DNA of 64,000 bases from Candidatus Magasanikiibacteriota bacterium (GCA_903893485.1 CAITMK010000004.1:431-64430); one strand, 5' to 3'. Shown: positions 883-57,904, numbered from the stretch's first letter. Notes: a model not told the origin generated them from the letters alone. Numbers and translations: made by a program.

Positions 883-1371
883 TTAGTTTGTTTTTGTTTC
901 AGCCGCAACAATTACTTGCGCGGGTTTAATAATTTTTCCTGACATTTCGTAGCCGCCTGCAACTTCGGTAAGGACCGTGCCTGGCGCGACGCCCGCGGCA
1001 GATTCTTCTTTTACCGCTTCCATCCAACTTGGATCAAATGGTTTACCAACGGTTTCCATTTCGGTTACGCCGAGCTGCGAAAGCGTCTGTTTAAAAAGCT
1101 GAGCGATGTGGCCGGTGCCGGTCATCCAATTTTGCACGGCTGGCGATTGATCTTCTGCGGCTGGCACATGCGCCATCGCGCGTTTGAAGTAATCGTACAC
1201 GGGCAAGAATTTTTCCACGGCGTGCGCGGTGGCGAGCGTCATCATTTGGATGCGCTGCGCTGCTAAATCTTTTTGCAAATTTGCGTAATCAGCTTGCGCA
1301 CGAAGCGCTGCCGCTTTCCAGTCTGGTTCTTGAGGCGCTACAATTGGTTGTTCTTCTAATTCATCACTCAT
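883..1371 (-). CDS. grpE: Nucleotide exchange factor GrpE.
   Basis: 162-aa ORF with GrpE-like coiled-coil N-terminus and C-terminal beta domain. It sits between hrcA and dnaK as in the canonical operon. Confidence 0.85.
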   Translation of the reverse strand: MSDELEEQPIVAPQEPDWKAAALRAQADYANLQKDLAAQRIQMMTLATAHAVEKFLPVYDYFKRAMAHVPAAEDQSPAVQNWMTGTGHIAQLFKQTLSQLGVTEMETVGKPFDPSWMEAVKEESAAGVAPGTVLTEVAGGYEMSGKIIKPAQVIVAAETKTN

Positions 1372-2072
1372 AGATCTTGTTCAATTATTTTTTTCATAGC
1401 TTGAAGGAGCGCAAGGTTACGATCATAGCGCATGCGCATAAAGCCCAGAAGCGCGATGATTTTGTCCCCATCGCTCGTGGCAACTTTGGTCACGAGCATC
1501 GAAAGGTTGTCGTTAATCGGATTTTGTTTGCCGATTAGGATTTGCACGTCACCCGTGTGTTCGTAGGCGAGCGAGAAAACTTCGTCGAGCACTTCGTCAG
1601 TGCGATCCAGCGCGCGCGAGATGCTGCGCATAATGACCGCATCATGTGATTCTGGCGCGTCGTACATGTGGCTCATGCCAATGGCGTACAGTGAGCGCGG
1701 ATCCATGCCAACGACCACGACATTGCCCGCAAGCTCCGAAAGTTCCCGGGCAGCGCTACGGATTTTTTCTTCCGGCGTTGCACGTTCGATTTCGGTGTGA
1801 GCGGCCGCGGTTTCGCGGGTCACATTGCTAGGGCGAACAAACTCTTCGATGTACAGGCGGTACCCTTCTTCAGTTGGCACGCGGCCGGCCGATGTGTGCG
1901 GCTGGCGCAGGAGGCCTGCGCGTTCCAAGTCCAGAAGCTCGTTTCTGACCGTGGCGCTGCTCACATTTTCGTTGAGCCGCGAAACCACCCATTCACTAGC
2001 GATGGGCTGGCCTGTGGATATGTACCCCTCCACCACGATGCGGAAAATTTGGCTTTTTCTGGCTGAAAACAT
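1368..2072 (-). CDS. hrcA: Heat-inducible transcription repressor HrcA.
   Basis: 234-aa ORF with an N-terminal winged-helix. A CIRCE operator lies immediately upstream. The hrcA-grpE-dnaK order is retained and overlaps grpE by 4 nt. Confidence 0.9.
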   Translation of the reverse strand: MFSARKSQIFRIVVEGYISTGQPIASEWVVSRLNENVSSATVRNELLDLERAGLLRQPHTSAGRVPTEEGYRLYIEEFVRPSNVTRETAAAHTEIERATPEEKIRSAARELSELAGNVVVVGMDPRSLYAIGMSHMYDAPESHDAVIMRSISRALDRTDEVLDEVFSLAYEHTGDVQILIGKQNPINDNLSMLVTKVATSDGDKIIALLGFMRMRYDRNLALLQAMKKIIEQDL

Positions 2073-2096
2073 AGCCTTTTTGAGTCTTAAAACACA

Positions 2097-2123
2097 TTAG
2101 CACTCTGGAGTATAGAGTGCTAA
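2097..2123 (-). promoter_or_regulatory. CIRCE operator (HrcA binding site), TTAGCACTC-N9-GAGTGCTAA.
   Basis: The sequence ttagcactctggagtatagagtgctaa is a perfect 9-bp inverted repeat with a 9-nt spacer, 25 nt upstream of the hrcA start. Confidence 0.9.
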
Positions 2124-2162
2124 TGAAGGGTTGTCAAGTTGATTTTATCTAAAGAATATTTT

Positions 2163-4265
2163 TTAGATAGTCTCCGCAACAAAATCATCAAATTCCTGGC
2201 GAAATTCTTTTGATTTAATCATCCAGAGATCATCGAGGTCTTTAAATGGATCGATGAATTGCTCGCTACCCACATTCAATCTGTCATAAGTACTTGATGT
2301 ACCAGGAGCTTCTGTAAACCACTCATCTTGTTGATCTGTGGACACCCCAATCGCTTTTAAATCGTTCTTGTCACGCACCAGATGTGCCAATTGTCGCATC
2401 TGCCCTTCGATTGGCCGTACCTCATTTTTATACGCCTGATAATGACCTGCAATTTCTGCGAGTTTAGCTTTCCATTCTGGATTTGATTTGATCGCGCCAA
2501 AAAATTCTTGCTCAAACGGGTACTTCACCTCGTCTTCAATTGCGGAATATAACCACGTATTATTCAAGGTTGCCACATATCGATAGTCTTTTGCGGTATT
2601 CTCAATGGCTTTATTTGGATCTTGAAATAATTTTGGATGCGTACGACGAATTTCAGCGAGCATGTTCTGGACTGCGGTTCGGTCTTGGTTAAGAATTTCT
2701 GTGTGAGCTTTGAGTACCTTATTACGCTCCGCAAGAAGATCTGCGGTTTTTTGTTTCAGTTCTGTATAATTTTTTGGTTTATTTTTTTCAAATTCAGCGC
2801 TTGCCAATTGCCATCTGAAATTCCGCAAACGACTTTCAGCATCCATTTGCACCTGAGATGCATCAGACTGGATGGCATGAATAGCTTCTAATTTTTCATT
2901 GCCAAAAAATCCGGTAAGAGGTTTCTCACTTATTTTTGCTTCTTCTAGCAATGCTAACTCAAATGCGTGCTTTGCAGCTGTTGCCTTTTTTTGCGCCGCA
3001 CGCGCATCAAACTCCAAAAGAGATTCTTGCGCGGCTGGCGTTTCAGCGCGGGCTTCTGCGCGATAATGCTGAAGAACTTTGGCCTCAATTCGACTTCCAA
3101 CCCCAACATAGGTTGGATCCGTTCGAGCAAAAAGACGTACATGGTCGCGATTCAGATCAGTTAAACTTCGAATTGATTCTGCTTTATAGAATTCACCAGG
3201 TTGAAACTGCACCGGTTTTCGAGGACCTTTTGGCAAGAGTCCTTTCGCAATCAAATCTTGCATGAGTTTATCATCGATTTGCTTTGAGTCACCACTTGCC
3301 AGCGCAAAACTTCTAAGATCTTGATCATATGCGTTCACTTGACTTTCAAGCATTGCGAGACGTGCTTGGTATTGGGCACTCACGCGCACCGCATTAAAAA
3401 TTTCAGATTTAAGTATCGGATTTTTTTCAACATCTTCAATTACATGCGGCGCCACCTGCTCAACCATCACGGCAAATTCAGGATCAGTCATTGATCGTGT
3501 GCCCTTTTTTTTCAGCCATTCTTCATTGTGAGCGCTGCTATATTTTCGTTGAAGTGCAAATAATTTTTGGTTTGGAATATGCCCAGCGTCCCAAAATTCT
3601 GTTGACATCGTATAATCTCTAAATTCCTTTGCCGAATCCAGCAACGCTGCTTTTTCTGCCAAAATTGATTCGCGCGTCAATTCGGTTTCAACGGCACTTT
3701 CCGCTTCTGGATGTTGCGCGGCATTTGCTTCGGCCATGCGCACGGTCGCAGAAATTTGCAGATCCTTAAGCACTTCCGCGTCACCACTTTGCATCGCCGC
3801 ATCCATTTGAGCAACTTCTTCATCAGTAAGTGTCTCAAGCCGCTCTAGTAGAGCTGCTAAATTTTCATGCTCTGCGGCAGCGGTTCGTTTTGCATCAAAC
3901 GCTTCTTTTACACCCGGCACGTGAGCGCCACGCGCTGTTTCGCGCCGCACACCGTGCACTTCCTCTTCGGTGGTAACACCTTCTTGTAGCGCTTCATTCA
4001 ACGTCGGCATTACCTCGCCAACCGCTTCACGAACCTGTGCTTTATGCTGCGCCACCAATTCAGCATGCTGAGCCGCAGTATTTTGAGCAAGCTGATTATA
4101 AGTACTCGCTGACAAATGCAACGCATCGCGAACACGATCGCGAGTTACTGTGGCCTGCTGTTGTTTTGCTTTTGCTTCTTCGGCTGCTGTGGCAGCAGCA
4201 AGCTCAGCAGCCTCTCTTTCTCTTTTTGCGGTTAAACGTTGTTGGATATCTTCTAAGACGCTCAT
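2163..4265 (-). CDS. Large hypothetical alpha-helical/coiled-coil protein (700 aa). It shares an N-terminal motif with the neighbouring 383-aa protein.
   Basis: Long ORF with no recognisable catalytic motifs. N-terminal segment TVTRDRVRDALHLSASTYNQLAQ. Confidence 0.6.
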   Translation of the reverse strand: MSVLEDIQQRLTAKREREAAELAAATAAEEAKAKQQQATVTRDRVRDALHLSASTYNQLAQNTAAQHAELVAQHKAQVREAVGEVMPTLNEALQEGVTTEEEVHGVRRETARGAHVPGVKEAFDAKRTAAAEHENLAALLERLETLTDEEVAQMDAAMQSGDAEVLKDLQISATVRMAEANAAQHPEAESAVETELTRESILAEKAALLDSAKEFRDYTMSTEFWDAGHIPNQKLFALQRKYSSAHNEEWLKKKGTRSMTDPEFAVMVEQVAPHVIEDVEKNPILKSEIFNAVRVSAQYQARLAMLESQVNAYDQDLRSFALASGDSKQIDDKLMQDLIAKGLLPKGPRKPVQFQPGEFYKAESIRSLTDLNRDHVRLFARTDPTYVGVGSRIEAKVLQHYRAEARAETPAAQESLLEFDARAAQKKATAAKHAFELALLEEAKISEKPLTGFFGNEKLEAIHAIQSDASQVQMDAESRLRNFRWQLASAEFEKNKPKNYTELKQKTADLLAERNKVLKAHTEILNQDRTAVQNMLAEIRRTHPKLFQDPNKAIENTAKDYRYVATLNNTWLYSAIEDEVKYPFEQEFFGAIKSNPEWKAKLAEIAGHYQAYKNEVRPIEGQMRQLAHLVRDKNDLKAIGVSTDQQDEWFTEAPGTSSTYDRLNVGSEQFIDPFKDLDDLWMIKSKEFRQEFDDFVAETI

Positions 4266-4283
4266 AGTATATATTGATCATCT

Positions 4284-5435
4284 TTATATTTTCTTTACCA
4301 AATTCTGCTCAACCTCTCTTCTCCATTGACTAATAAACCCAACATCTCGATTATACTGAATGCTTGTAAAATTCTTCGGTTTTAGGATTGCACCCAACCC
4401 ACGATTTGATAGCGATCCAGGATGAGCAAAGTGAGTGTAGTCCAAATTTTCCACCTTTATGATTCCTGAATCTGTCGTGTGAATTTCCCCACCGGGATTT
4501 GATAAATAAAGATCTTGCTTCGGATCAAATCCATTTTCAAATGCAACAATAAGTTTGCCCGACTCTTTCATTCCCTGCTTTATTAACCAAATAAGTTCAA
4601 ACATCAAAGAGCAACTACCTGATGCGGCAGCTGTCTCAAATCGCTGCACAGCCTGCGGCATCACGCCCAACTTCGTAGCAATTTCTACGGCTAATCGTTC
4701 TGCGTTAAGAGGCACTTCCTTAAAACCCTCTCCATTTTTAAAGTGATTCCAATCTACCATATTACATAACTCAACAATTTGAGTGTCTAAATCTTCAAGC
4801 TTCGCTTTAAATTCAATCATCGCACCTGGGTGACTAAAGAGATGGCTGATTTGTCGTTCTTTATTTTTTAAATAAGTCATCTGCAATTCTGACTGTTTTT
4901 CGTATGGACGCACTCCACTAAAAGGCGGTGCAAAGGTTTTTATGGAGAATTCAAAATCAGGATTTTTATATGTTTCAGTATATAATCCATCAACGACGGT
5001 ATTTGTCATTTTATAGTCGCCCGATCGAAGCGCACGTTCAAGTGCGGCTGTTTCCTTCGGAGCCATGAGAGGTAATATTTCTATAGCTCGTCTTATGGTT
5101 TCTTGACGAACCATATCACGTTTCGATTCTGCCAGATTTTTCTTTAGCAACTCAAGCGTAGCATCCTTTGCTGCATGCAAGCCTTGATCGTACGCTTCAT
5201 TATTCAAAGGTTCGCCTTCGTCCAGAGCCCCATTAAACTTTTGACGAAAAGCCTGCGTTGATTCATCGCTTGCATTAAGTAAGGCCGCCTTTCTTTGAGC
5301 ACTCTCCCCCAAAGACTGTGTCAATCGCTCATGAGAAATATGAAGCGCTGCTCTCACATGATCGGCTGATACAGAATTGGTGTTAGTAGGTTGTTGGTTA
5401 TCAAGTGACTCTGACATATTTTTAGTGTTGTTCAA
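4284..5435 (-). CDS. Hypothetical protein (383 aa), possibly a papain-like cysteine peptidase fold (weak).
   Basis: N-terminal SVSADHVRAALHISHERLTQS motif, paralogous to the 700-aa neighbour. C-terminal AASGSCSLMFELIW followed by DYTHFAHPGS resembles a Cys/His catalytic arrangement. Confidence 0.55.
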   Translation of the reverse strand: MNNTKNMSESLDNQQPTNTNSVSADHVRAALHISHERLTQSLGESAQRKAALLNASDESTQAFRQKFNGALDEGEPLNNEAYDQGLHAAKDATLELLKKNLAESKRDMVRQETIRRAIEILPLMAPKETAALERALRSGDYKMTNTVVDGLYTETYKNPDFEFSIKTFAPPFSGVRPYEKQSELQMTYLKNKERQISHLFSHPGAMIEFKAKLEDLDTQIVELCNMVDWNHFKNGEGFKEVPLNAERLAVEIATKLGVMPQAVQRFETAAASGSCSLMFELIWLIKQGMKESGKLIVAFENGFDPKQDLYLSNPGGEIHTTDSGIIKVENLDYTHFAHPGSLSNRGLGAILKPKNFTSIQYNRDVGFISQWRREVEQNLVKKI

Positions 5436-5985
5436 TTTTCCCTAACAAAACATTTTCTACAAAAATGCCACGGGGAAAAAATATCCGCTCGAGTTCATTT
5501 TTGATTTCAGTTTCAATCATGTCGCGCTTCGTAAAGTTCATTTCTTCGTAGGTAAAGCGTGAAGCAATTAAACGAAAACGTGAACGAATCGTTGGGCGCA
5601 CAATTTTTTGTACAAATTCTTCGCCAATGGTTTGCCAAATTACGGGAATTTGATGCACGTCTAAACGCATGAGCACGGTACCTTGCATGGTGACATTTTC
5701 ATTATCTCGTGTGGTCGCTTCGATTGATTTATCACCAAGCGCGCGAATCATTTCTGGATTAAAATCATCATCAATGGTGTATTCCAAAGTTTGCACATTA
5801 AACAATTTCGCTTTCTGCCAAAATGGAATTTTTAAATGCAGGCCTGGCGTATACACACGCTTCAGCACGCCGCGACCTAAATCGTACACAGCCGCAACAT
5901 ATCCTGGTGGCACATAAATCGCAATGCCTTTAAGGACATCTTCCATGACAAACGAGTACATCATTTTATCGATTTCTTCTGACAT
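5422..5985 (-). CDS. SPFH/band-7 (prohibitin/HflC-like) domain protein.
   Basis: 187 aa. TRDNENVTMQGTVLMRL matches the SPFH core (TKDNV.v.vd..v.yrv). Confidence 0.5.
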   Translation of the reverse strand: MSEEIDKMMYSFVMEDVLKGIAIYVPPGYVAAVYDLGRGVLKRVYTPGLHLKIPFWQKAKLFNVQTLEYTIDDDFNPEMIRALGDKSIEATTRDNENVTMQGTVLMRLDVHQIPVIWQTIGEEFVQKIVRPTIRSRFRLIASRFTYEEMNFTKRDMIETEIKNELERIFFPRGIFVENVLLGKIEQH

Positions 5986-5991
5986 ATAATT

Positions 5992-6753
5992 TTAGTGATG
6001 AGCCGCACCTGCTTTTTTCTTTTTGAAAAAAGTCACACGGATAAGCGTGAGCAAGTACGAAAATAATAATGAAGTTAGAATAAACAAGGACTTAACCATT
6101 GGCAACCACCAGAGAAACAAAAATGAAAGCAGTGGAAATACAATTAAAAATGTTTTCTCCCGGCCCGTCATTTTTCCTTTTTTCCCCTGGCGACGAATCA
6201 AAATTTCGATGATAAGCACCGCCGCAACAATCGCTGGCCAAATAATACTCTGGTGGCCAACATCGAACACCAATGTTTGCGCTGCCGTTGGTCCATATGG
6301 CACCGAGAAAAACACCGTATTTAATTTGCCTGGATAATCAATGCCTGGATACAAAATACGCGCAAGCTGCGTACCCTGAATACCCGTAATAAATACTTGA
6401 TAAAGCAAAACCAAAACCAACAGCTGAATCGCCAATGCCGTGGTTTTTGCCCATGGACGAATTTTATACTTGCGCGCCAAATGACGCACGTACTCTTTTA
6501 AATAAACCGGATCCGCACGATGGCGCTTTTGCGCTTCAATAATTTTTTCTTCCATTTCTTCGTATGCCATGGCGTTACGTTCCGCCATAATTGAAAGTGG
6601 AAGCAAAAATATGCGTAATGCCAACGTAAGTGCCACCACCGCCCAACCCAAGTTTTGCTGGGCAATAGTGTTATAAAAATACACCAAAGCGTTTACCAGC
6701 GGTTGGTACAAAAACAGCTGCCAAAATGCAACCAGGTCATTCATATAGGTCAA
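5992..6753 (-). CDS. yidC: Membrane protein insertase YidC/Oxa1 family.
   Basis: 253 aa, polytopic. LPLSIMAERNAMAYEEMEEKIIEAQKRHRADP...KYKIRP matches the YidC C-terminal core. Confidence 0.8.
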   Translation of the reverse strand: MTYMNDLVAFWQLFLYQPLVNALVYFYNTIAQQNLGWAVVALTLALRIFLLPLSIMAERNAMAYEEMEEKIIEAQKRHRADPVYLKEYVRHLARKYKIRPWAKTTALAIQLLVLVLLYQVFITGIQGTQLARILYPGIDYPGKLNTVFFSVPYGPTAAQTLVFDVGHQSIIWPAIVAAVLIIEILIRRQGKKGKMTGREKTFLIVFPLLSFLFLWWLPMVKSLFILTSLLFSYLLTLIRVTFFKKKKAGAAHH

Positions 6754-6777
6754 AGTATATCATGTGTTTGGATTAAC

Positions 6778-8022
6778 CTACAACCGCGAGGTATCGCGGC
6801 GCATCAGTGCGCGCATGATCCAGTCAAGGCAAACCTTGGTACGATTTCTGAGGCTCCACATGCGCTGCAAAAAAACATAGCGGCGAATAATCCACATAAT
6901 CCTGCCCGAAAACCGAAATGCGCCCAGCTGCCCCACCGCAAACCAGTCGCCAATTGGCACAATGTCGCCTTTGCTTACAAACTTAAATGGTCGAACTGGC
7001 TGATGCGTCAACAAATTATACATATTTTGCGCCGCGTGTGCTGCCTCCGCGGTTGCGGCTTGTGCGGTTTGGGGAACCATAACTTTTTCCGGAAAAACAA
7101 TTTCTGCCACATCGCCAATCACAAACACCTCAGGATGTCCAACAAGCTGAAGCGATGCCGTTGTCGCTAACCCTCCATGTGCCGCAAGTAATTCGGCAGC
7201 AACCAAACCACGCACCGATGATTCCATGCCCGCAGCCCACACACGAAGGCCCGCACGCAATTCCCCACTACCCGCAACAGTCACACCATTTTTGGTGCAC
7301 CCTTCTACTTTTGCATTCAGCATTATTGTAACACCCATTTTTTGTAGACGCGCCGCGGCTGCTGCAGAAAGCGAAGGATGCATCTGACGAAGTAATCGAT
7401 CGCCCGCATCAATCAGCGTAATACTTGCCTCATGAATATCGACTTCTTGATACAATTCACGCAATTCGGTATGAATAAGGTCAGAAATCTGCCCTGCCAA
7501 TTCAACACCAGAGGGACCGCCGCCAATAATTATTGTTGCTAATAATTCCTTGCGTACTGCAGCATCTTTTTCACGTGCCGCTTTTTCAAAATGATCTATC
7601 AATTGATTCCGAACCACAACCGCATCATCAATCGATTTAAAAGTGGTGCAATTTTCATGCGCACCGGGAATGCCAAAATAATTTGGCCGCACACCCAGCG
7701 CGACGACAAGATAATCATAATTAATCTCACCACTATCGGTAACAAGTTTTTTTTGTGCAACATCAATTTTTTGAATCTGCGTTTCCGTGACAGTTTCAAC
7801 ACAGCAATTTACAATTTCACGCAGTGGTTGCGTAATATGATTTCGTTCAACAGAACCAGTTGCAACTTCGTGCAACATGGGGTAAAACAAAAAATAATTT
7901 TTATCGGAAACCATTTGAAACCGTACCGCCGGCGAACCGTGCAGTTTTTTGTGCAATGTCTTGTATAATTCAACACCGGCAAACCCACCTCCTGCAATAA
8001 CAATTTTTTTCATATTAGACAT
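6778..8022 (-). CDS. ndh: Type II NADH dehydrogenase (NDH-2), FAD-dependent pyridine nucleotide-disulfide oxidoreductase.
   Basis: N-terminal KKIVIAGGGFAGVE (GxGxxG) and a second dinucleotide site IIIGGGPSGVELAG. Confidence 0.85.
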   Translation of the reverse strand: MSNMKKIVIAGGGFAGVELYKTLHKKLHGSPAVRFQMVSDKNYFLFYPMLHEVATGSVERNHITQPLREIVNCCVETVTETQIQKIDVAQKKLVTDSGEINYDYLVVALGVRPNYFGIPGAHENCTTFKSIDDAVVVRNQLIDHFEKAAREKDAAVRKELLATIIIGGGPSGVELAGQISDLIHTELRELYQEVDIHEASITLIDAGDRLLRQMHPSLSAAAAARLQKMGVTIMLNAKVEGCTKNGVTVAGSGELRAGLRVWAAGMESSVRGLVAAELLAAHGGLATTASLQLVGHPEVFVIGDVAEIVFPEKVMVPQTAQAATAEAAHAAQNMYNLLTHQPVRPFKFVSKGDIVPIGDWFAVGQLGAFRFSGRIMWIIRRYVFLQRMWSLRNRTKVCLDWIMRALMRRDTSRL

Positions 8023-37616: not shown

Positions 37617-38345
37617 ATGAATACCATTTTATGTATTGGCGCTACGCACGGTGATGAACCAATTGGCGTATGCGCACTTCAGATACTTGAAAAGCGAGTC
37701 GATAATTTTGATTGGATTATTGGAAATGAAAAAGCATATGAACAGAATACCCGTTGTTTTGAGGGTGATCTAAATCGAAGCGCCCCGGGCATCTTTGGCG
37801 CACCAAATTATGCATCACGTCGCGCGGCAGAAATAATTGCACTGGCACAAAATTACAAATACACTATTGATTTGCATGGCACTACCGCCGGGACAGGTAT
37901 TTTTACCATTATTAGCAGAGCCACCGATAAAAATATCACGCTCGCTATGCAACTTGGGATTAAAAATATTATCATATGGCCGGCAATCAACGCTTCGCTC
38001 AAAGGACCACTGAGTGAATACACTCCCTGCGGATTAGAAATTGAATGCGGACCAAAAGACTCACTGGAAATTCAAAATGAATTAATCGATATTTTAGAGC
38101 GCTTCATAAAACTGCAAATGCAGCCTGAAATAAATATGCCGGTGGCCAAACCGAACTGCTTTTCCTTTTATGAGGTATACAGCGAACTACGAAAGCCTGA
38201 AATCGCTCCACAGCTTTCAGAATTTTGTGAAATCACCACCGATAATGAAACTTTTTTTCCACTTCTTATCGGACGGTATCAAGATATCACCTGTTACAAA
38301 ATGAAGCGAGTAGAATATGTCTCAATAAAAATACAACGCGATTAA
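37617..38345 (+). CDS. Succinylglutamate desuccinylase/aspartoacylase (AstE/AspA) family zinc hydrolase.
   Basis: ATHGDEPIG, DLNR, IDLHGT motifs. Confidence 0.65.
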   Translation: MNTILCIGATHGDEPIGVCALQILEKRVDNFDWIIGNEKAYEQNTRCFEGDLNRSAPGIFGAPNYASRRAAEIIALAQNYKYTIDLHGTTAGTGIFTIISRATDKNITLAMQLGIKNIIIWPAINASLKGPLSEYTPCGLEIECGPKDSLEIQNELIDILERFIKLQMQPEINMPVAKPNCFSFYEVYSELRKPEIAPQLSEFCEITTDNETFFPLLIGRYQDITCYKMKRVEYVSIKIQRD

Positions 38346-40243
38346 GCTACTGCAGCCTCTTTTTGGGCCTGCCGCATTGCATTTAATTCAAGCATCCGCA
38401 TTTTAAGTGGGTCATCGCTGCTTTGTTTTAGTTTTTTCTTAAATGATGTGGTAAGCGCAGCAATCGCTTCCTCTTTTGTGGTAGCGCCTCGCATACCATC
38501 GACAAATTTATTCATGACATCATGATTCTTTGTAATTTTTTCAACTTCAATTTCAGACAGGTCTGCACCATAACCTCTTTCAGCTACCAATTGTACAAAA
38601 GTATCCTCATCAAGAGTATTCACCGGGTGTTGAAAAAAAATAGCAACAATCTTTTCAATTAGTTTTTTATTTTTTTCTCTCTGTTCATCTTCTTTTTTTA
38701 GCATTTCAGCTTTGATTGCCGCGTATTTGTCGGCAACTGGACCACCGTCGACAACGATTTTATCAATAAGTTTTTGAGCGGCTAATTCTATTGATTCCTC
38801 AGGAAATATTTTTTTCAAACGTTCAACAATTTTTGTTCGTAATTCAATAAGCTCCGGATCTTTCAAAAAGATATCAGATGCCAAATCTTCGACGCCAATC
38901 ATTTTCTTCGCAAATAACTGCAGCTCGGTGTCATCCAACAGTGCAGCATCTTTTATAGTAAATAGTTTTTTTAAAGCATCCGCTGACCCCGCTTGGTGAG
39001 CAACAAATTCCTGTAACCCCTTTCTAAGGCCTTCCAGATACAAAACGTATTCAGGATCTTCACCCACTACACCTTTATTTTCTGTTAACAACCCTGCCAA
39101 GCGAATTCTCTCTTGACCATGCCCCGCACCCACGTCTGTTCTGGCAGAAAATCGATCAGCACTCAGAACTTTTACATCTGGAGCATCGATAATCTTACCA
39201 ATCTGCGATAATCGCCTTCCGAATTCAGGATCTTCGCCGCCGCCAATTTTAGGAACCCCACCAACTAATGCAGCTTCGAATGCTCGGCTCGCCATATTTG
39301 CACCGGAAAAAGAAACCGCTTTTGTCTCTGGCTTTTCAACTTTATCCGATACACCATATAAATATAATTCGAGAACTTTTCTGTAATTATATTGCAACTC
39401 CGAATAGTTTGAAATATTTTCAAACAAATCTCCTTGCTCCGTTTGCTCAAAATCTAATCCACCTGCAATGCCAACAATAGCAGGGTTATCATGAAATACC
39501 TTTATTACATTAAAAACATAATTTTCATCAAGTTTTGTATCCGCGTCAGTCTGCCCAATAATACCATTTGATTTTTTTTGTTCGTAAAAACGAGCCGCTG
39601 CTTCTGCAACACCACGATTTCTCGCACCACCCACATTTGCTTCGCCTGGTGGTAATTCATTTCCTGGTGTAGCTTTATCGATTGCGTAAATTTTTATTCC
39701 CTGCGTTTTAATTTTATCGATAATTTTTCTTTCAGCATCGCTTAAATCTGGAGCGTCACTTCCCCCATTAATAAATTCAATGATACGCAAACAAATTTGA
39801 TTTTCTTCAAGCGCGGTGTGATAGTGCGCCAGCGATCTTTCGTAATCTGCATCACTCATGTTTTGCTTTCTTTGTGGCACACCAGCCGGATTATTAATCA
39901 CAAAAATCGCCTCAAATGATTGAGGTGCGACAGGTGTTTGATTCGCAAGCGACTCGAGTGGACGAAAAATTGCATCTCGCTCCCCGTATGCAGGGATTAC
40001 AATTGAGACTTCACACAATGCGTCCATCGGCGTCTGAATTCGATGTTCACTTGCGGGCAAATTTTCTTGTAGATACCCCTCGATCTTCTGGTTCATCTGG
40101 TCACGTTGTCTATCTACATTTCTATCTACCTGCAGCGCCGCTTGTACACGCACACTATCGACTGGCGCACTTTGATTCAGCACTGGCAGTTCTGCGTCCA
40201 CACGGGCCGCTTCGTTTGTAATTATTTTTGGATCCCCTGTCAT
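38342..40243 (-). CDS. Large hypothetical protein with an internal GT-A fold glycosyltransferase (GT2-like) domain and a C-terminal helical region.
   Basis: N-terminal PVDSVRVQAALQV motif shared with the 700- and 383-aa proteins. SIVIPAYGERD ... QTDADTKLD (DxD) GT-A signature. Confidence 0.6.
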   Translation of the reverse strand: MTGDPKIITNEAARVDAELPVLNQSAPVDSVRVQAALQVDRNVDRQRDQMNQKIEGYLQENLPASEHRIQTPMDALCEVSIVIPAYGERDAIFRPLESLANQTPVAPQSFEAIFVINNPAGVPQRKQNMSDADYERSLAHYHTALEENQICLRIIEFINGGSDAPDLSDAERKIIDKIKTQGIKIYAIDKATPGNELPPGEANVGGARNRGVAEAAARFYEQKKSNGIIGQTDADTKLDENYVFNVIKVFHDNPAIVGIAGGLDFEQTEQGDLFENISNYSELQYNYRKVLELYLYGVSDKVEKPETKAVSFSGANMASRAFEAALVGGVPKIGGGEDPEFGRRLSQIGKIIDAPDVKVLSADRFSARTDVGAGHGQERIRLAGLLTENKGVVGEDPEYVLYLEGLRKGLQEFVAHQAGSADALKKLFTIKDAALLDDTELQLFAKKMIGVEDLASDIFLKDPELIELRTKIVERLKKIFPEESIELAAQKLIDKIVVDGGPVADKYAAIKAEMLKKEDEQREKNKKLIEKIVAIFFQHPVNTLDEDTFVQLVAERGYGADLSEIEVEKITKNHDVMNKFVDGMRGATTKEEAIAALTTSFKKKLKQSSDDPLKMRMLELNAMRQAQKEAAVA

Positions 40244-40749: not shown

Positions 40750-41550
40750 TCACGCTATAAACTTTTTAGCACTTTTTGCTAATCGCAAGGCGAGCATTTC
40801 ATCGCCATTTAAAATGATTGCGAGGCCAGGATATAATTTCTTAACGACATCAACACCGTCGCGCTGATAAAAAGTTACCAATCTGCCACGATCTTCTCTT
40901 TCTACTGGTATCAGACCTTCTTGAGTAAGACTATCATAATCTAATTCGTTTGCACCCGCAAAATAAAGCTCTCCACTTTTACAAACCCCAAAACCATGCC
41001 CCATAATTGCCATATGCAAGAATGCATCTGACTCTGAAAATGGCACATCATCTTTTAAAACAAACTTTATTGCAGCGTCAGCGTGAATAGATTTCGTGGC
41101 TTCAAGTAAAACCCCCTCACCCCCGACAAACGCAGCGGTCAATTCATTTTTAATCCGTTCAACATCGGCTAAATAACTTTTTGCATCGAGATCATGATCA
41201 CTCACCTCATGACATGCGCGTACAAGCAGCATCCATAACTGCACCTCTGGACGTTCCCCCTCACCAAGATCCTGAGCTCGGCTCCAAATAGCACCAACAT
41301 GCAATTCTTTAGTGAGTGTGTCTACCGCATCCATAGATACACCAGCACTAGAAGCAATTTTTTCAACAATCTGACGAACCTCTTTTACCGCAAGCATGCC
41401 AGCGGGATCAAGACCGCGCACAATACGCCCCTCAAGACCGCGAAGTCCATATGCCCGAAGCTGCTCCCCATGCGCTTCGATTTGTTTTGCCTCTTGTTCT
41501 TGGGTAGAATGATTTTGAACTATTGTTGCCCCCATCATCGATTCTGACAT
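40750..41550 (-). CDS. Hypothetical protein (266 aa), first gene of the 266/149/633 operon.
   Basis: No recognisable domain. SMDAVDTLTKELHV loosely resembles the shared N-terminal motif. Confidence 0.45.
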   Translation of the reverse strand: MSESMMGATIVQNHSTQEQEAKQIEAHGEQLRAYGLRGLEGRIVRGLDPAGMLAVKEVRQIVEKIASSAGVSMDAVDTLTKELHVGAIWSRAQDLGEGERPEVQLWMLLVRACHEVSDHDLDAKSYLADVERIKNELTAAFVGGEGVLLEATKSIHADAAIKFVLKDDVPFSESDAFLHMAIMGHGFGVCKSGELYFAGANELDYDSLTQEGLIPVEREDRGRLVTFYQRDGVDVVKKLYPGLAIILNGDEMLALRLAKSAKKFIA

Positions 41551-41952: not shown

Positions 41953-42537
41953 TTAATTTTTATCCGAAAGCAGCCAATCCAAATTCATTAGTTCCCTCTG
42001 AACTTTCAAAGTGTTCCCATGTCGCAACAATCCTCGATATGACTGTATTCGACCCTCAACACCCTGAACCAGTATCCGCCGAAACATTCGCTGTTTTGAC
42101 GCTCTACGCAATATGCGATGTTTTGGAAAATTAACCCATCCTAAAAAATCAACGCCCAAAACGATTGATTGAAGATAAATTTTATCTGGGTGAATTACCA
42201 GCCCAAGCTCCGACTGCAAAAAATTATCCATCAACCGAAGTTGTCCCTCTAGCCATGCACGGTCATGTGACATCACAACGAAATCATCGGCGTATCGAAT
42301 ATAAAACCGCGCCTTCAGTTTATGCTTCACAAACTGATCGAACACATTCATATACACGTTGGTGAATAGCTGTGATGTTAAGTTACCAAGTGGTAAACCT
42401 ACACCCGCAGATGTCTCAAAACTTTTTATAATATGTTCCAGCAGATCCATGATCCGTTCATCAGGAATATAGCACCTTAAAATCTTAATGAGCCGTGCGT
42501 GATCGATGTTTGCGAAAAACTTCCGAATATCACATTT
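41953..42537 (-). pseudogene. 5'-truncated reverse transcriptase with DGR-type motif 4.
   Basis: Minus frame reads VLKCDIRKFFANIDH (motif 3), GLPLGNLTSQLFTNVYMNVFD ([ILV]GxxxSQ is DGR-specific), IRYADDFVV (motif 5), FLGW (motif 7). No motifs 1-2 in any frame upstream. The ORF-track N-terminal 45 aa are an out-of-frame readthrough of the neighbouring GC-rich gene. Confidence 0.7.
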
Positions 42538-43177
42538 CAAAACCGGGCTGTTTCCATAAAGAGTTGCGAACGGCGAGAAACCGATAGTTGCCGTTCCAGC
42601 TGTTGCTCCACCAGAACAGGTCCAGCTTCCGCTCGTCACCGTTCCGGTAGAGGTACGGGGCACGGCGGTCGTCACCGTGACCCCAGATCGAACCCAAGCC
42701 CATGATCGCGTACTTGCGCTGTTCGTCGGGATTTTTCACGGCGTAGGCCAGGAGTTCGCGCAACGTCGCAGGACGGAAGCCATCTTTGTCCATCGCCGAA
42801 ACGACGTCCTTGGACGACATGTCCTTGCCGAAGTGGTAGAGCTTGACCTGGAGGTTCTGCTCGCCCGTCTCATGCGCCTGGTTCGGGAAGTTCTTCTCGA
42901 CGATGTCGTCGTACTTCCAGTCGAACGCGGCGGCCGTGATGGCGTCGATCAGCTTGAGCGCGTAATCGACCGAAAGCACTTCGCAGCCGTCGGGAATGGT
43001 GATCCCGCGCTCAGCCATGATCTGCTTGGCGATCTCAGTGGCCAGCTTCTTGTCCTTGAGGATGCGCAGGATGTCTTCATCGTTGCCGCCCATGTCGAGC
43101 ACGGCGTTGACGAGCACCTTCACGACCTCGAACATTTTGCCAAAGTTCTTGAGCAATTCACTTACAGGACGAGCCAT
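42530..43177 (-). CDS. Hypothetical protein (215 aa), GC-rich islet 4, occupying the position of the RT 5' half.
   Basis: GAGAGG SD. GC about 58% from about 42545 to 43270 with an abrupt drop at both edges. The + strand ORF 42677..43348 is a shadow. Confidence 0.5.
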   Translation of the reverse strand: MARPVSELLKNFGKMFEVVKVLVNAVLDMGGNDEDILRILKDKKLATEIAKQIMAERGITIPDGCEVLSVDYALKLIDAITAAAFDWKYDDIVEKNFPNQAHETGEQNLQVKLYHFGKDMSSKDVVSAMDKDGFRPATLRELLAYAVKNPDEQRKYAIMGLGSIWGHGDDRRAPYLYRNGDERKLDLFWWSNSWNGNYRFLAVRNSLWKQPGFEM

Positions 43178-53941: not shown

Positions 53942-55378
53942 TTACCATTGTACCGAAAAATTTTGATCAGTTTTGAGCGTGCCCTGCCAATCGTACGCAC
54001 CATCACCAAAATGTGCGGGCGCTTCTGGTGGCGTTGCCTGTCCTAGGGTTGTACCAAAATCATCGTGTATCGTCAAATCAAATTGTGGCAAACCAAGTTG
54101 CTTTTGAACAAACAACCTATAGTGATGTGCGGCAATTGCCTGTAAAACCTCTGGCGCTGGGGTAAAACGAAATGTTACGGTGTGCGAAGTGCCCGGCTCG
54201 ACCGAAACAAACGCACCAACTGACAAAAATCCATCTTCATGTTCCTGCCCAAACTCGCCAGGCTTTGTTATTTTGTCGCCCGACATCGCACCATCGCCGC
54301 CTAAAAAGGTTGCGTTGCCCGGCACGAACACACGCAAATACGTTCGGTAACGCGTAGTGCGATAATCAAAGCTGCCCGTGTGTTTATATGTTACCGCAAC
54401 CGATTCTTCCCACGCACCAGTTTTATTTTGAGCAAGTGAAACTACCGCGGAGCGATCAATTACACGATCTGTTTTAAGCGCGGCCAAATTCGCATCAACA
54501 ATTTGCAACTTATCGGGCGTTCCTGGCAGCATGCGGCCAGACCATTGCAACGCATCGAGCGAGCGCTGCACTGCTGGATCAATATCATATATCATGACAT
54601 GACGATTTTTAATAAGTTCAAATCCATCTTGCAAAAGCGCACCCCAACTTGTTGGCGAAATTACTGCCATGCGCTGCGCAAGTACGCCGGCCAACTTTCC
54701 CAAAATTTCTTTTCGCTTTTCTGTTGGAATTTGTTTGTGCGTAAAATCAACTTCAACCGAATATTCAAGTAAATCTGAAATCGTATCTGAGGTAAATGTA
54801 ACGTCATCAATCGTAATTGGCCCGGTATATTTCATGAGCGTTTGCAAAACCTCTGGTGTGATTGCAACAACCGTATGCACATCGGCTGCCTGCGCACCAC
54901 CTTCTGCGGCATAAAATTGCAACGCACGTTGCGCATCTGTTACAAAATCTGGCGACCAATTTGAATCACGAAAAAACCAACGCGTTGATTGTAAATATGT
55001 TTGTAATGCCTGTGGTGGTGCAACTTCAAAACTTCCCGGCGCTGCATCATCAATTTTTTCAGTGCCTTCGATTTTCATTTTTGTTGGCACACCATGATCA
55101 AATGTCACTAATCCGTACGAACCAATAAATCCACCGCCCGGACGCAATTCAGTATTATTTAAAAACAAAAATAAAACCGTATTCGGATGATCAATGCCAA
55201 GCACCCGCGGCACGACTCCTCCAACGGGCAGTGCTGAAGGATTTGTTTTCTCAATTACGGAATCAATGATGCGGGCCGCAAACACGCTGCTGTGCGTAAC
55301 TGCCCACAAGGAGCCCGCACCAGTAGCCCCAACAATTACGGCCAAGCCAAGTGCGATAAAGAGCGATTTTTTTTTCAT
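53942..55378 (-). CDS. DUF4012 domain secreted/membrane-anchored protein.
   Basis: N-terminal anchor. RPGGGFIGSYG motif characteristic of DUF4012. Confidence 0.6.
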   Translation of the reverse strand: MKKKSLFIALGLAVIVGATGAGSLWAVTHSSVFAARIIDSVIEKTNPSALPVGGVVPRVLGIDHPNTVLFLFLNNTELRPGGGFIGSYGLVTFDHGVPTKMKIEGTEKIDDAAPGSFEVAPPQALQTYLQSTRWFFRDSNWSPDFVTDAQRALQFYAAEGGAQAADVHTVVAITPEVLQTLMKYTGPITIDDVTFTSDTISDLLEYSVEVDFTHKQIPTEKRKEILGKLAGVLAQRMAVISPTSWGALLQDGFELIKNRHVMIYDIDPAVQRSLDALQWSGRMLPGTPDKLQIVDANLAALKTDRVIDRSAVVSLAQNKTGAWEESVAVTYKHTGSFDYRTTRYRTYLRVFVPGNATFLGGDGAMSGDKITKPGEFGQEHEDGFLSVGAFVSVEPGTSHTVTFRFTPAPEVLQAIAAHHYRLFVQKQLGLPQFDLTIHDDFGTTLGQATPPEAPAHFGDGAYDWQGTLKTDQNFSVQW

Positions 55379-55379
55379 A

Positions 55380-57271: not shown

Positions 57272-57861
57272 AAAATAGTATTAATCGCTTTTTCATGGCG
57301 CGAATCAAGCACTTCGTAAATAAAACGATCCATGAGTTGGCGGCGTTCTTCGAATTCGCGCAGCGGCATAATCGCATAACGCACAGCGATTCCATGATCG
57401 TGTTCAAATTCATTCATGATTTTTGTTAGCTCGTGTGCAGGCACCGTACCAACGATGAGCATGTCGACTGAAGTATTTGCATTCGTAAATGATCCGGTAA
57501 AAAGCAAAAGTTTAATATCACCCAAACCAACAATTTGATTACGCAAAGAATCTTCGCCAAGCACATGTGATTTTAAAAGTAGCGCGCGCAATTCTGGATA
57601 CAGTGGTGACGCCTCGTTCAATCGATAATATTTTCGTTTTGCTTCGTGTGCATCTTCGGCCTCGCCGGTAAGATTCTCTGGCGCATCAACCGCAGCAATA
57701 ATTCCTGAATTGGTTAAATGCGTCAGTTCACGGCGAACTGCGTTAATCTGTGTATCTGCCAAACGGGTCAATTCGCGCACAAAAAAATGCCTTTGCGGTT
57801 CACGATAAAAAAGGCGGAGAAGTTTGACGCGAGTTCTGGAGCCAAAAAGATGGTCAAGCAT
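57268..57861 (-). CDS. Winged-helix plus nucleotidyltransferase-fold hypothetical regulator.
   Basis: 197 aa. N-terminal HTH (FVRELTRLADTQINAVRRELTHL), C-terminal NTase-like region. Confidence 0.35.
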   Translation of the reverse strand: MLDHLFGSRTRVKLLRLFYREPQRHFFVRELTRLADTQINAVRRELTHLTNSGIIAAVDAPENLTGEAEDAHEAKRKYYRLNEASPLYPELRALLLKSHVLGEDSLRNQIVGLGDIKLLLFTGSFTNANTSVDMLIVGTVPAHELTKIMNEFEHDHGIAVRYAIMPLREFEERRQLMDRFIYEVLDSRHEKAINTIL

Positions 57862-57904
57862 GTGTATCTATAGTATACTTGGGGCAAGCCCCCTGGTCAA
57901 TGGT

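What the first reader, a model, noticed from the sequence alone, without database searches (positions are those of the whole stretch)
2163..5435. Two adjacent large hypothetical proteins share an N-terminal V-x-x-D-x-V-R-x-A-L-H-x-S motif
The 700-aa and 383-aa proteins both carry the motif about 30-45 residues from the N-terminus, after a Gln/Asn-rich stretch. The 700-aa protein has TVTRDRVRDALHLSASTYNQLAQ and the 383-aa protein has SVSADHVRAALHISHERLTQSLG. The same motif appears in the 633-aa GT-A protein at 38342-40243 (PVDSVRVQAALQV). A weaker version appears in the 266-aa protein at 40750-41550.

Downstream of the motif the sequences are unrelated.

The motif could be a shared targeting or secretion signal, or a chaperone-binding module, for a family of diversified effector-like proteins.
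Basis: seen in the sequence. Interest (0 to 1): 0.6.

Follow-up and report, generated by a model that had tools for sequence, protein, structure and literature searches.

The report
New helical domain family beside SPFH

Summary
The V-x-x-D-x-V-R-x-A-L-H-x-S motif is present in both adjacent minus-strand proteins: 700 aa, and 383 aa (more likely 377 aa from the ATG at 5417). It is not an isolated signal. The two proteins are homologous over about 165 N-terminal residues (Smith-Waterman score 96 against 36±6 for shuffles; still 73 against 31±6 with the motif removed).

A profile search of 1.84 billion proteins found only nine relatives. Seven carry the domain at their own N-terminus, ahead of unrelated or loosely related all-helical C-termini of 261-859 aa. 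V-R-x-A-L is invariant, and RDRVRDALHLS is the most conserved 11-mer.

AlphaFold predicts a long antiparallel helical hairpin with the motif at the start of helix 1. No Pfam, NCBIfam, PHROGs, PADLOC or PDB relative was found.

In 8 of 11 informative loci the gene lies 4-17 nt downstream of a highly conserved 187-aa SPFH gene (yidC-SPFH-X | CIRCE-hrcA-grpE-dnaK). It occurs only in the Magasanikbacteria sub-clade whose SPFH ends in 'LLGK'.

The GT-A protein (38342-40243) and the 266-aa protein (40750-41550) score at chance level and are not members.

Best reading: tandem paralogs of a lineage-specific cytoplasmic coiled-coil family whose N-domain is a docking or oligomerisation module, probably working with the SPFH scaffold. 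A secretion signal is not supported, but it is not excluded either.

The parts
2163..4265 (-). p700: 700-aa family member, all-alpha and acidic, with no TM segment or signal peptide.
   Evidence: The ORF is. The exact protein is in NCBI/ENA (P0001). An HMM built only from the 8 external members gives E 2.7e-32. AlphaFold predicts an all-helical protein. It is 28% identical over 412 aa to P0007 (E 1e-24), which looks like its ortholog.
3696..4265 (-). N-terminal domain of p700 (residues 1-190). It consists of the 'MSVLEDIQ' N-terminal helix, an Ala/Glu/Lys-rich linker, the motif, the helical hairpin and the SGD segment.
   Evidence: It matches profile positions 1-186. The alignment is A3.
4110..4148 (-). 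Motif V40-S52 of p700 (VTRDRVRDALHLS).
   Evidence: V45, R46, A48 and L49 are invariant. This is the highest-information 11-mer of the domain.
3276..3473 (-). Second conserved module of p700 (residues 265-330: IEDVEKNPILKSEIF...LESQVNAYDQDLR...GDS).
   Evidence: It is shared with P0007 and P0013 (P0013 is 42% identical over 55 aa, E 8e-12).
2415..2543 (-). Internal repeat of that module in p700 (residues 575-617).
   Evidence: Residues 195-450 against 450-700 score 64 against 35.4±5.8 for shuffles.
4284..5435 (-). p383/p377: the divergent tandem paralog. The start is probably the ATG at 5417 (377 aa).
   Evidence: The ORF is. The external-member HMM gives E 8.3e-6 over residues 19-147. The 377-aa form is the sequence held in the public collections (P0014). 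The start context is TAA-AAAT-ATG.
4935..5435 (-). N-terminal domain of p383 (residues 1-167).
   Evidence: AlphaFold pLDDT is 83-92 for residues 21-150. Predicted elements are helices 24-72, 79-123, 126-138 and 141-152, then a beta-hairpin at 153-166.
5334..5372 (-). Motif V22-S34 of p383 (VSADHVRAALHIS).
   Evidence: It forms the first turns of predicted helix 1.
5422..5985 (-). 187-aa SPFH/Band_7 protein without a TM segment, immediately upstream of the family genes.
   Evidence: Pfam Band_7 E 8e-25. It is 83-86% identical across the family-bearing genomes. It has the clade-specific C-terminal tail 'VENVLLGK..Q.'.
5992..6753 (-). yidC (60KD_IMP), the first recognisable gene of the tightly packed yidC-SPFH-p377-p700 run.
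   Evidence: Pfam. The gap to the SPFH gene is 6 nt.
2095..2137 (-). hrcA promoter (TTGACA-17-TATACT) overlapping a perfect CIRCE operator (TTAGCACTC-N9-GAGTGCTAA). It marks the 3' boundary of the p700 transcription unit.
883..2072 (-). hrcA (1368-2072) and grpE (883-1371), the downstream heat-shock operon. dnaK follows beyond the start of the window.
   Evidence: Pfam annotations of the identical genes in L001/L002.

Best explanation
**What it is (shown).** The two genes are old tandem paralogs of an undescribed, narrowly distributed, fast-evolving protein family.
- The family is found in one sub-clade of Candidatus Magasanikbacteria (Patescibacteria/CPR), with a few occurrences elsewhere.
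- It is defined by an N-terminal all-alpha domain of about 165-190 residues.
- The gene is the distal part of a tightly packed yidC-SPFH-X(-X') gene run. It is separated from hrcA-grpE-dnaK by hrcA's own promoter and CIRCE operator.

**Domain layout, in order.**
1. A short 'M-x-x-F/L-L-D-x-I-K' helix.
2. An Ala/Glu/Lys-rich spacer of variable length.
3. The motif R-D-R-V-R-x-A-L-H-L-S, which opens helix 1 of a predicted antiparallel helical hairpin about 45 residues per arm.
4. Two short helices that carry an invariant Glu and an invariant S-G-D Asp.

**How it most likely works (inferred).**
- The proteins are cytoplasmic.
- The base of the hairpin (motif, Glu and SGD) is a conserved docking or oligomerisation surface.
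- That surface ties the variable helical C-terminal arms to a constant partner at the inner face of the membrane, most likely the co-encoded TM-less SPFH scaffold.
- The N-domain is therefore a structural anchoring module, not a secretion signal.
- The GT-A protein and the 266-aa protein are unrelated.
For: **Homology of the pair**
-.
- Independent membership test: an HMM built only from the 8 external members gives p700 E 2.7e-32 and p383 E 8.3e-6. The next window ORF is at E 2.9.

**The family**
- Ten proteins reach E<=1e-3 among 1.84 billion. Seven match profile positions about 3-190 at their own N-termini.
- Alignment A3 shows invariant V-R-x-A-L, E150 and D162.

**Fold**
- pLDDT is 83-92 for p383 residues 21-150, predicted as a helical hairpin.

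**The hairpin base as the functional core**
- L020's 327-aa member keeps the N-terminal helix, linker and motif, fused directly to the TDEE...SGD...LK segment (profile positions 1-61 plus 135-185). It has lost the hairpin arms.
- L017's positional homolog keeps RQDRVREALRV even though the rest is barely alignable.

**Link to SPFH**
- The family gene lies 4-17 nt downstream of the 187-aa SPFH gene in the window and in L007/L019, L011/L012, L013, L015, L017, L018 and L020.
- The SPFH protein is 83-86% identical across these genomes. The family N-domains are 21-49% identical to the central member P0008.
- All loci whose SPFH ends in 'LLGK' carry the gene. None of the roughly 70 other Magasanikbacteria loci, whose SPFH has an 'LLSE...' tail and is usually followed directly by hrcA, carries it.

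**Cytoplasmic and membrane-proximal**
- No member has a signal peptide or TM segment, except P0009. P0009 carries the domain on a C-terminal two-TM anchor.

**Transcription unit**
- A perfect CIRCE element and a TTGACA-17-TATACT promoter lie between p700 and hrcA.

**Precedent (literature)**
- In B. subtilis a cytosolic SPFH protein (YdjI/SamI) tethers a helical-hairpin protein (PspA) to the membrane (PMC8581546; bioRxiv 10.64898/2026.02.06.704340).
Against: - The SPFH link rests on gene order within what is essentially one clade, so phylogenetic inertia cannot be separated from functional coupling.
- The SPFH|hrcA junction also hosts unrelated insertions in other clades: PP2C, and unknown 407- and 458-aa proteins. 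It may simply be a permissive spot.
- Three members are not next to an SPFH gene: P0006, P0009 and P0005.
- P0006 sits in a genome whose YidC is only 25-29% identical to the clade's YidC. That hints at lateral spread of an accessory gene.
- No physical interaction could be modelled, because no multimer prediction was available.
- The p700 model gives lower confidence for the N-domain (pLDDT 43-83).
- Foldseek finds only generic hairpins.
Confidence: 0.5

Rival explanations
1. The N-terminal domain would be a trafficking, secretion or chaperone-binding module. It would deliver a polymorphic set of effector-like C-terminal regions out of the cell, for example to the host of this episymbiont. The logic resembles LXG or other N-terminal delivery domains of polymorphic toxins.
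For: - The architecture is a conserved N-terminus with highly variable C-termini of 261-859 aa.
- There are two paralogs here, and apparently two in another population.
- The proteins diverge much faster than their neighbours.
- There is possible lateral spread to a distant genome.
- LXG-type delivery domains are also elongated helical N-terminal domains (own knowledge).
Against: - No signal peptide is present.
- No toxin, enzyme or any other known domain is found in any C-terminus with Pfam, PHROGs, PADLOC or NCBIfam.
- No member gave a Pfam match to any delivery-domain family such as LXG.
- There is no consistent small immunity-like gene downstream.
- There is no adjacent secretion apparatus. 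The conserved neighbours are yidC, SPFH and hrcA-grpE-dnaK.
- P0009 anchors the domain by a C-terminal TM pair, which fits a cytoplasmic-face location.
Confidence: 0.13
2. The family would be a fast-evolving cytoplasmic coiled-coil (cytoskeleton-like or stress-protective) protein. Its N-domain mediates self-assembly only. Its position after the SPFH gene is an accident of insertion at a permissive junction, with no functional tie to SPFH.
For: - The proteins are all-alpha, acidic and low in complexity.
- The SPFH|hrcA junction carries unrelated insertions in other Magasanikbacteria clades.
- P0005, P0006 and P0009 are not next to an SPFH gene.
Against: - The gap to the SPFH stop codon is 4-17 nt and on the same strand in every one of 8 distinct genomes.
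- Presence of the gene coincides with a clade-specific change of the SPFH C-terminal tail.
Confidence: 0.25
3. The proteins would be divergent PspA/IM30/Vipp1 (ESCRT-III) membrane-remodelling proteins. This is suggested by the short N-terminal helix followed by a long helical hairpin, and by the known link between PspA and a cytosolic SPFH protein in Bacillus.
For: - The predicted helical hairpin follows a short 'MxxFLDxIK' N-terminal helix.
- Vipp1 filaments appear among the weak Foldseek hits (E 0.9-1.1, probability 0.2-0.4).
- There is a literature precedent for a PspA-SPFH link.
Against: - No member matches Pfam PspA_IM30.
- hhalign of the family profile against E. coli PspA gives a probability of 0.08%.
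- The Foldseek hits are non-significant and generic.
- Family members are much longer than PspA and have unrelated C-termini.
Confidence: 0.05
4. The motif match would be a chance resemblance between two compositionally similar helical proteins.
For: Both proteins are rich in Ala, Glu and Gln. The single BLASTP comparison gives only E 0.035.
Against: - Shuffle tests give z scores of about 9.6 with the motif and 7.3 without it.
- The external-member HMM hits both proteins and nothing else in the window.
- The motif is invariant in homologs from other genomes.
Confidence: 0.01

Closest known systems
PspA-YdjGHI (SamGHI) module of Bacillus subtilis (ESCRT-III homolog PspA plus the cytosolic SPFH protein YdjI/SamI)
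   Same: - One operon holds an SPFH protein that lacks its own TM segment and a cytoplasmic protein built on a long helical hairpin with a short N-terminal helix.
- The SPFH protein localises the hairpin protein at the membrane (PMC8581546; bioRxiv 10.64898/2026.02.06.704340).
   Different: - There is no sequence or profile similarity to PspA.
- No YdjG/H-like membrane proteins are encoded alongside.
- The gene order is SPFH first.
- Members are 261-859 aa with variable C-termini.
- The interaction with SPFH is inferred here, not shown.
SPFH-NfeD operons (for example qmcA-ybbJ, yuaF-floT)
   Same: A conserved SPFH gene is tightly paired on the same strand with a partner gene. In general, SPFH proteins work with an operon-encoded partner (own knowledge).
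   Different: NfeD proteins are membrane proteins with an OB-fold domain. The present family is soluble and all-alpha, and no member gave a Pfam match of any kind above noise.
N-terminal delivery domains of polymorphic toxins (for example LXG domains of type VII secretion substrates)
   Same: A conserved elongated helical N-terminal domain of about 200 residues is followed by highly variable C-termini, with multiple paralogs.
   Different: - There is no Pfam match to LXG or any other family.
- No toxin domain is recognisable.
- No immunity gene is present.
- No type VII secretion genes are seen in the window.
- The genes sit in a housekeeping neighbourhood.
Bacterial coiled-coil-rich proteins (crescentin-, FilP- or Scy-like scaffolds)
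   Same: These are also all-alpha, low-complexity, rapidly diverging and lineage-restricted cytoplasmic proteins.
   Different: Those families lack this defined N-terminal domain and motif. No homology was detected, and no periodic heptad architecture was established here.

Membership tests
New N-terminal helical-hairpin domain family (defined here, alignments A3/A6) | A significant match to a profile built only from members outside this window. | tested here: met
   p700 gives E 2.7e-32 (106.6 bits). p383 gives E 8.3e-6 (20.2 bits). The next window ORF is at E 2.9.
New N-terminal helical-hairpin domain family (defined here, alignments A3/A6) | The invariant V-R-x-A-L core, together with the downstream Glu (E150) and the Asp of S-G-D (D162). 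| tested here: met
   All are present in both p700 and p383.
New N-terminal helical-hairpin domain family: membership of the GT-A protein (38342-40243) and the 266-aa protein (40750-41550) | A match to the domain profile or to the motif profile. | tested here: not met
   The domain HMM gives E 14 and E 39. The motif HMM gives 1.1 bits overall and -2.8 bits at GT-A residues 32-39. Pairwise shuffle tests give p about 0.1 to 0.7. The GT-A protein has Q at the invariant R position.
New N-terminal helical-hairpin domain family (defined here, alignments A3/A6) | The gene lies immediately downstream of the 187-aa SPFH gene whose product ends in 'LLGK'. | tested here: met
   This holds in the window and in 7 other genomes. 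It is not universal: P0005, P0006 and P0009 lie elsewhere.
PspA/IM30/Vipp1 (ESCRT-III superfamily) | Sequence or profile similarity to PspA_IM30. | tested here: not met
   There is no Pfam hit at E<=1 for p700 and p383, nor at E<=0.01 for 9 relatives. hhalign against E. coli PspA gives a probability of 0.08%.
PspA/IM30/Vipp1 (ESCRT-III superfamily) | An N-terminal amphipathic helix followed by the helix 1/helix 2 hairpin. | tested here: inconclusive
   A hairpin is predicted. The Foldseek matches to Vipp1 have E 0.9-1.1 and are no better than those to other hairpins.
LXG or other polymorphic-toxin delivery domains | A Pfam match to the delivery domain together with a recognisable C-terminal toxin domain. 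| tested here: not met
   There are no Pfam, PADLOC, PHROGs or NCBIfam matches.
LXG or other polymorphic-toxin delivery domains | Co-occurrence with the cognate secretion system in the genome. | not testable with these tools
   Only a 64-kb window of the genome is available. None of the window genes scanned matched a type VII secretion family.
NfeD (the canonical SPFH operon partner) | TM segments and an NfeD OB-fold domain. | tested here: not met
   No TM segment is present. No member gave a Pfam match.
Sec/Tat-secreted proteins | An N-terminal signal peptide with a hydrophobic core. | tested here: not met
   The highest 19-residue Kyte-Doolittle hydropathy in p700 and p383 is 0.51 and 1.14, neither at the N-terminus. 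The N-termini are charged. No dedicated signal-peptide predictor was available.

The most novel reading that the evidence does not exclude
The N-terminal hairpin domain would be a previously unknown trafficking module. It would route leaderless, rapidly diversifying helical proteins out of CPR cells, or onto their surface, for interaction with the host. The SPFH/YidC neighbourhood would then reflect a membrane export platform rather than a cytoplasmic scaffold.
Probability: 0.1. Interest if true: 0.75.

Novelty: new variant of a known kind. Interest (0 to 1): 0.38.

Why it matters
CPR/Patescibacteria genomes are full of unannotated, fast-evolving proteins, and very few have any structural or contextual handle.

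Here a motif noticed by eye resolves into three things:
- a definable domain;
- a rare family (ten proteins among 1.84 billion cluster representatives);
- a conserved gene partnership with a TM-less SPFH scaffold next to yidC and the heat-shock operon.

If the partnership is functional, it would be a new kind of SPFH partner, alongside NfeD and the PspA-SamGHI link. It would also offer a way into how minimal-genome episymbionts organise or protect their membrane.

If the partnership is not functional, the result is still useful. It gives a clean family definition and it corrects two false memberships.

The biological impact is limited by the narrow distribution and by the lack of any functional assay in uncultivated organisms.

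Tried and rejected
1. **Word-indexed homolog searches.** p700 found only itself and p383 found nothing. The public 377-aa form of p383 sits in a 90% cluster whose representative is a 50-aa fragment.
2. **Third word-indexed search with the domain alignment A3.** That search was wasted.
3. **HrcA as a synteny probe in GTDB genomes.** No confirmed locus was found. The SPFH alignment worked instead.
4. **JGI metagenome scan with the domain alignment.** It returned only the two contigs already known.
5. **IMG/VR viral scan.** It found none, so there is no sign of a phage origin.
6. **Sequence search of the PDB with the domain profile.** The best E-value was 0.19.
8. **PspA hypothesis.** Rejected by Pfam and hhalign.
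9. **Defence-system hypothesis.** No PADLOC hit for the SPFH protein or the family.
10. **A diversity-generating retroelement around the RT fragment at 41953-42675.** This might have explained the 'diversified' proteins near the GT-A gene. No template/variable repeat pair was found.
11. **Synteny between the GT-A/149-aa/266-aa block and the neighbourhood of P0009 in a related genome.** No homologs were found.
12. **Recent gene conversion as the cause of the shared motif.** Rejected, because the DNA is 45% identical with synonymous differences.


Full report
**1. The observation**

The region holds two minus-strand ORFs, 2163-4265 (700 aa, 'p700') and 4284-5435 (383 aa from a TTG start, 'p383').
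- The sequence after the upstream stop codon reads TAA-AAAT-ATG.
- The 377-aa form starting at the ATG at 5417 is the one present in NCBI, ENA and Logan. The protein is therefore probably 377 aa.
- Residue numbers for p383 below use the 383-aa frame.
- p700 carries TVTRDRVRDALHLS at residues 39-52. p383 carries SVSADHVRAALHIS at residues 21-34.
- In the six-frame translation of the whole window, the loose pattern V[RQK]xAL[HQ] occurs only three times: in these two proteins and in the GT-A protein at 38342-40243.

**2. Is it more than chance, and how far does it extend?**

- Smith-Waterman scores of the two N-terminal 180-residue stretches are 96 against 35.9±6.3 for 1000 shuffles. No shuffle reached the observed score.
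- With the motif cut away, p700[62:200] against p383[44:175] still scores 73 against 31.3±5.7.
- The similarity is therefore a domain of about 165 residues, not a motif. A second shared landmark is S-G-D, at p700 residues 160-162.
It holds only for the C-terminal parts (40 against 35.3±5.0).
- Against every ORF in the window, the p700-p383 pair (97) stands far above the background maximum of 49.
- The DNA under the two motifs is only 31/69 identical, with synonymous codon differences such as CGC/AGA and TTG/CTT. The duplication is old and conservation acts on the protein.

**3. The GT-A protein and the 266-aa protein are not members**

- Their N-termini score at chance against p700 and p383 (p about 0.1 and 0.5-0.7).
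- The family domain HMM gives E=14 and E=39.
- A motif-only HMM gives the GT-A site -2.8 bits.
- The GT-A site has Q where the family has an invariant R.

**4. Relatives elsewhere**

Word-indexed searches found only p700 itself. An exhaustive profile search of 1.84 billion cluster representatives, using p700 plus the p383 N-domain, found ten proteins at E<=1e-3. One of them is p700 itself.
- Seven match profile positions about 3-190 at their own N-termini: P0005 (407 aa), P0006 (521), P0008 (342), P0009 (261), P0010 (621), P0011 (375) and P0012 (859).
- P0007 (601 aa) also carries the N-domain. In addition it aligns with p700 over 412 residues (28% identity, E 1e-24). It is p700's ortholog-like relative.
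- P0013 (271 aa) shares a second p700 module (residues 265-330). That module is also repeated inside p700 at residues 575-617.

In the ten-sequence alignment the invariant columns are V45, R46, A48, L49, E150 and D162.
- The 11-mer with the highest information content is RDRVRDALHLS (3.40 bits per column), just ahead of IKGxTVEGLK.
- An HMM built only from the eight external members recovers p700 (E 2.7e-32) and p383 (E 8.3e-6). Nothing else in the window scores better than E 2.9.
- Most members start with M-x-x-F/L-L-D-x-I-K, followed by an Ala/Glu/Lys-rich spacer of variable length.
- From its ATG start, p383 reads MSESLDNQ. This looks like a vestige of that N-terminal helix, and p383 has no spacer.

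**5. Fold**

With the shallow family alignment, AlphaFold2 predicts p383 residues 21-150 at pLDDT 83-92.
- The predicted elements are two long antiparallel helices (24-72 and 79-123), two short helices (126-138 and 141-152) and a beta-hairpin (153-166).
- The motif forms the first turns of helix 1.
- Helix 2 runs back towards the start of helix 1. The invariant Glu and the SGD Asp on the short helices should therefore lie near the motif at the base of the hairpin. This is an inference, because I could not read the model coordinates.
- A natural deletion variant supports it. The 327-aa protein in L020 keeps the N-terminal helix, spacer and motif (LRERVRNALHLS), fused directly to F..MTDDE...SGD..LK (profile positions 1-61 plus 135-185). 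It has lost both hairpin arms.
- The barely alignable positional homolog in L017 still contains RQDRVREALRV.
- p700 is predicted to be all-helical at moderate confidence.
- The C-terminal half of p383 is predicted at low confidence.
- Foldseek against the PDB found nothing below E 0.4 for either model. The hits are generic hairpins such as the dynein stalk, EmrA and Vipp1.
- No Pfam, NCBIfam, PHROGs, PADLOC or PDB sequence match exists for any member.

**6. Genomic context**

*Organism.* The window comes from a Candidatus Magasanikbacteria genome (Patescibacteria/CPR).
- All 80 GTDB loci recovered with the neighbouring SPFH protein are Magasanikbacteria-type MAGs.
- Window genes such as DUF4012 and an archaeal-type ProRS fit a CPR genome.

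*Gene order.* The local order on the minus strand is yidC (5992-6753), SPFH/Band_7 (5422-5985, 187 aa, no TM), p377/383, p700, then hrcA-grpE-dnaK.
- The gaps are 6 nt, 4 nt (or a 14-nt overlap from the TTG start) and 18 nt.
- Between p700 and hrcA lie a TTGACA-17-TATACT promoter and a perfect CIRCE operator, TTAGCACTC-N9-GAGTGCTAA.
- The family genes therefore belong to the upstream yidC-SPFH run, not to the heat-shock operon.

*Conserved adjacency.* A family gene lies 5-17 nt after the 187-aa SPFH gene, followed by hrcA where the contig extends that far. This is seen for:
- P0008 (L007/L019);
- P0010 (L011/L012);
- P0011 (L013);
- P0012 (L015);
- the positional homologs in L017, L018 and L020.

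*Rates of divergence.*
- The SPFH proteins of these genomes are 83-86% identical.
- YidC, HrcA and GrpE are 53-67% identical.
- The family proteins are 24-37% identical over partial alignments.
- The family therefore evolves much faster than its neighbours.

*Distribution within Magasanikbacteria.*
- In the other 70 or so Magasanikbacteria loci the SPFH protein is 66-71% identical to the query. It has a longer 'VENVLLSEI...' tail and is usually followed directly by hrcA.
- All loci whose SPFH ends in 'VENVLLGK..Q.' carry a gene at the junction.
- The junction can also hold unrelated genes in other clades: PP2C, and unknown 407- and 458-aa proteins.

*Exceptions to the adjacency.*
- P0006 lies in the order pyrG | P0006 | nusA | yidC, in a genome whose YidC is only 25-29% identical to the clade's.
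- P0009 sits in a different neighbourhood of a related genome and has a C-terminal pair of TM segments.
- P0005 has opposite-strand neighbours.
- P0009 and P0012 come from the same three samples, so one population probably has two paralogs at two loci.

*Rarity.* Scans of JGI metagenomes and IMG/VR found no further members.

**7. Mechanism**

*Shown:*
- a real, rare, rapidly diverging family with a conserved N-terminal helical domain;
- tandem paralogs in this window;
- tight same-strand packing behind a conserved TM-less SPFH gene;
- no signal peptide, TM segment or known domain.

*Inferred:*
- The proteins are cytoplasmic.
- The hairpin base (motif, Glu and SGD) is a conserved contact surface for a constant partner or for self-assembly.
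- The variable helical C-termini are the lineage-specific 'business end' or merely spacer arms.
- The most economical partner is the co-encoded SPFH scaffold.

*Precedent.* In Bacillus subtilis the cytosolic SPFH protein YdjI/SamI localises the helical-hairpin protein PspA to the membrane (PMC8581546; bioRxiv 10.64898/2026.02.06.704340). The family is nevertheless not PspA. P0009, in which the same domain is tethered by C-terminal TM helices, fits action at the inner face of the membrane.

*Weakness.* The evidence for the SPFH link is gene order within essentially one clade, at a junction that tolerates other insertions.

*Rival readings:*
- a self-assembling coiled-coil protein with no SPFH tie (about 0.25);
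- a PspA-like protein (about 0.05);
- chance (about 0.01).

**8. Novelty and verdict**

- The motif is genuine and marks a protein family and domain with no entry in Pfam, NCBIfam, PHROGs or PADLOC and no solved or recognisable fold relative.
- Conceptually it is a new variant of things already known: a lineage-specific coiled-coil protein, or an operon partner of an SPFH scaffold. It is not a new category of system.
- It is narrowly distributed and has no testable phenotype at present, so interest is moderate to low (0.38).
- The proposed secretion or targeting role is unsupported.

Noticed in passing
window 2095-2137 (minus strand): A textbook CIRCE operator (TTAGCACTC-N9-GAGTGCTAA) overlaps the -10 region of a near-consensus TTGACA-17-TATACT promoter in front of hrcA. 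This HrcA is unusually short, 234 aa in all related genomes.
   Followed up: partly
L017-L096, position about 6560-8000 (the SPFH|hrcA junction): The junction between SPFH and hrcA is a hot spot for lineage-specific insertions across Magasanikbacteria. Insertions include a PP2C phosphatase (L023, L029, L033, L042), unknown 407/458-aa proteins (L044, L045) and small ORFs (L038, L068). L038's 168-aa ORF starts MSSMLDRLE, which resembles the family's N-terminal helix.
   Followed up: partly
L020 585-1568: This 327-aa family member is a natural deletion variant. The motif is fused directly to the TDEE...SGD segment and both hairpin arms are missing. It is followed by a further 276-aa ORF of unknown function before hrcA.
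   Followed up: partly
L003 2402-3967 (P0006): This family member has an N-domain 40-51% identical to those of the Magasanikbacteria members. Its genome's YidC is only 25-29% identical to theirs, and the gene context differs (pyrG | X | nusA | yidC). This suggests lateral transfer or a patchy wider distribution.
   Followed up: partly
window 41953-43177 (minus strand): A 240-aa ORF matches only the distal two thirds of the reverse-transcriptase domain (RVT_1 positions 66-203). It overlaps a 215-aa ORF whose C-terminus is rich in Trp, Asn and Tyr (..LFWWSNSWNGNYRFLAVRN), which is reminiscent of retroelement-diversified target proteins. No template/variable repeat pair was found within 36-46 kb.
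   Followed up: partly
window 2415-2543 and 3276-3473 (minus strand): p700 contains an internal repeat of a module of about 43 residues (IED..K.P...E.F.A.......+A.LA.......AY..++R). The module recurs in P0007 and P0013, and in looser form in other members' C-termini. The C-termini are therefore modular rather than wholly unrelated.
   Followed up: partly
locus titles (for example L018, L021-L023, L057): Many GTDB representative MAGs titled 'uncultured Gammaproteobacteria bacterium' (binchicken and SRP co-assemblies) carry a Magasanikbacteria-type SPFH-hrcA locus. One of them is a 1.23-Mb single-chromosome assembly (OZ246405.1). The record titles look like placeholder or incorrect taxonomy.
   Followed up: no
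window 4284-5417; cluster of P0014: The 90%-identity cluster that holds the 377-aa protein is represented by a 50-aa fragment (P0015). This may be why the word-indexed homolog search returned nothing for this gene, not even the gene itself.
   Followed up: yes
window 57824-59968 (plus strand): A 714-aa ORF has no Pfam domain and only a sub-threshold match to an LAVTG sortase-sorting motif model (NCBIfam, E 0.007). It lies next to a glycosyltransferase/DUF4012 cluster at 53942-56909.
   Followed up: no
window 38342-40243 (minus strand): The 633-aa 'GT-A' protein reaches Glycos_transf_2 only just below the Pfam threshold (22.8 against 23.3 bits), and only over residues 80-118. It is a singleton cluster in the 15-billion-protein collection. 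The neighbouring 149-aa and 266-aa proteins are likewise without relatives in the related genome L008/L009.
   Followed up: partly
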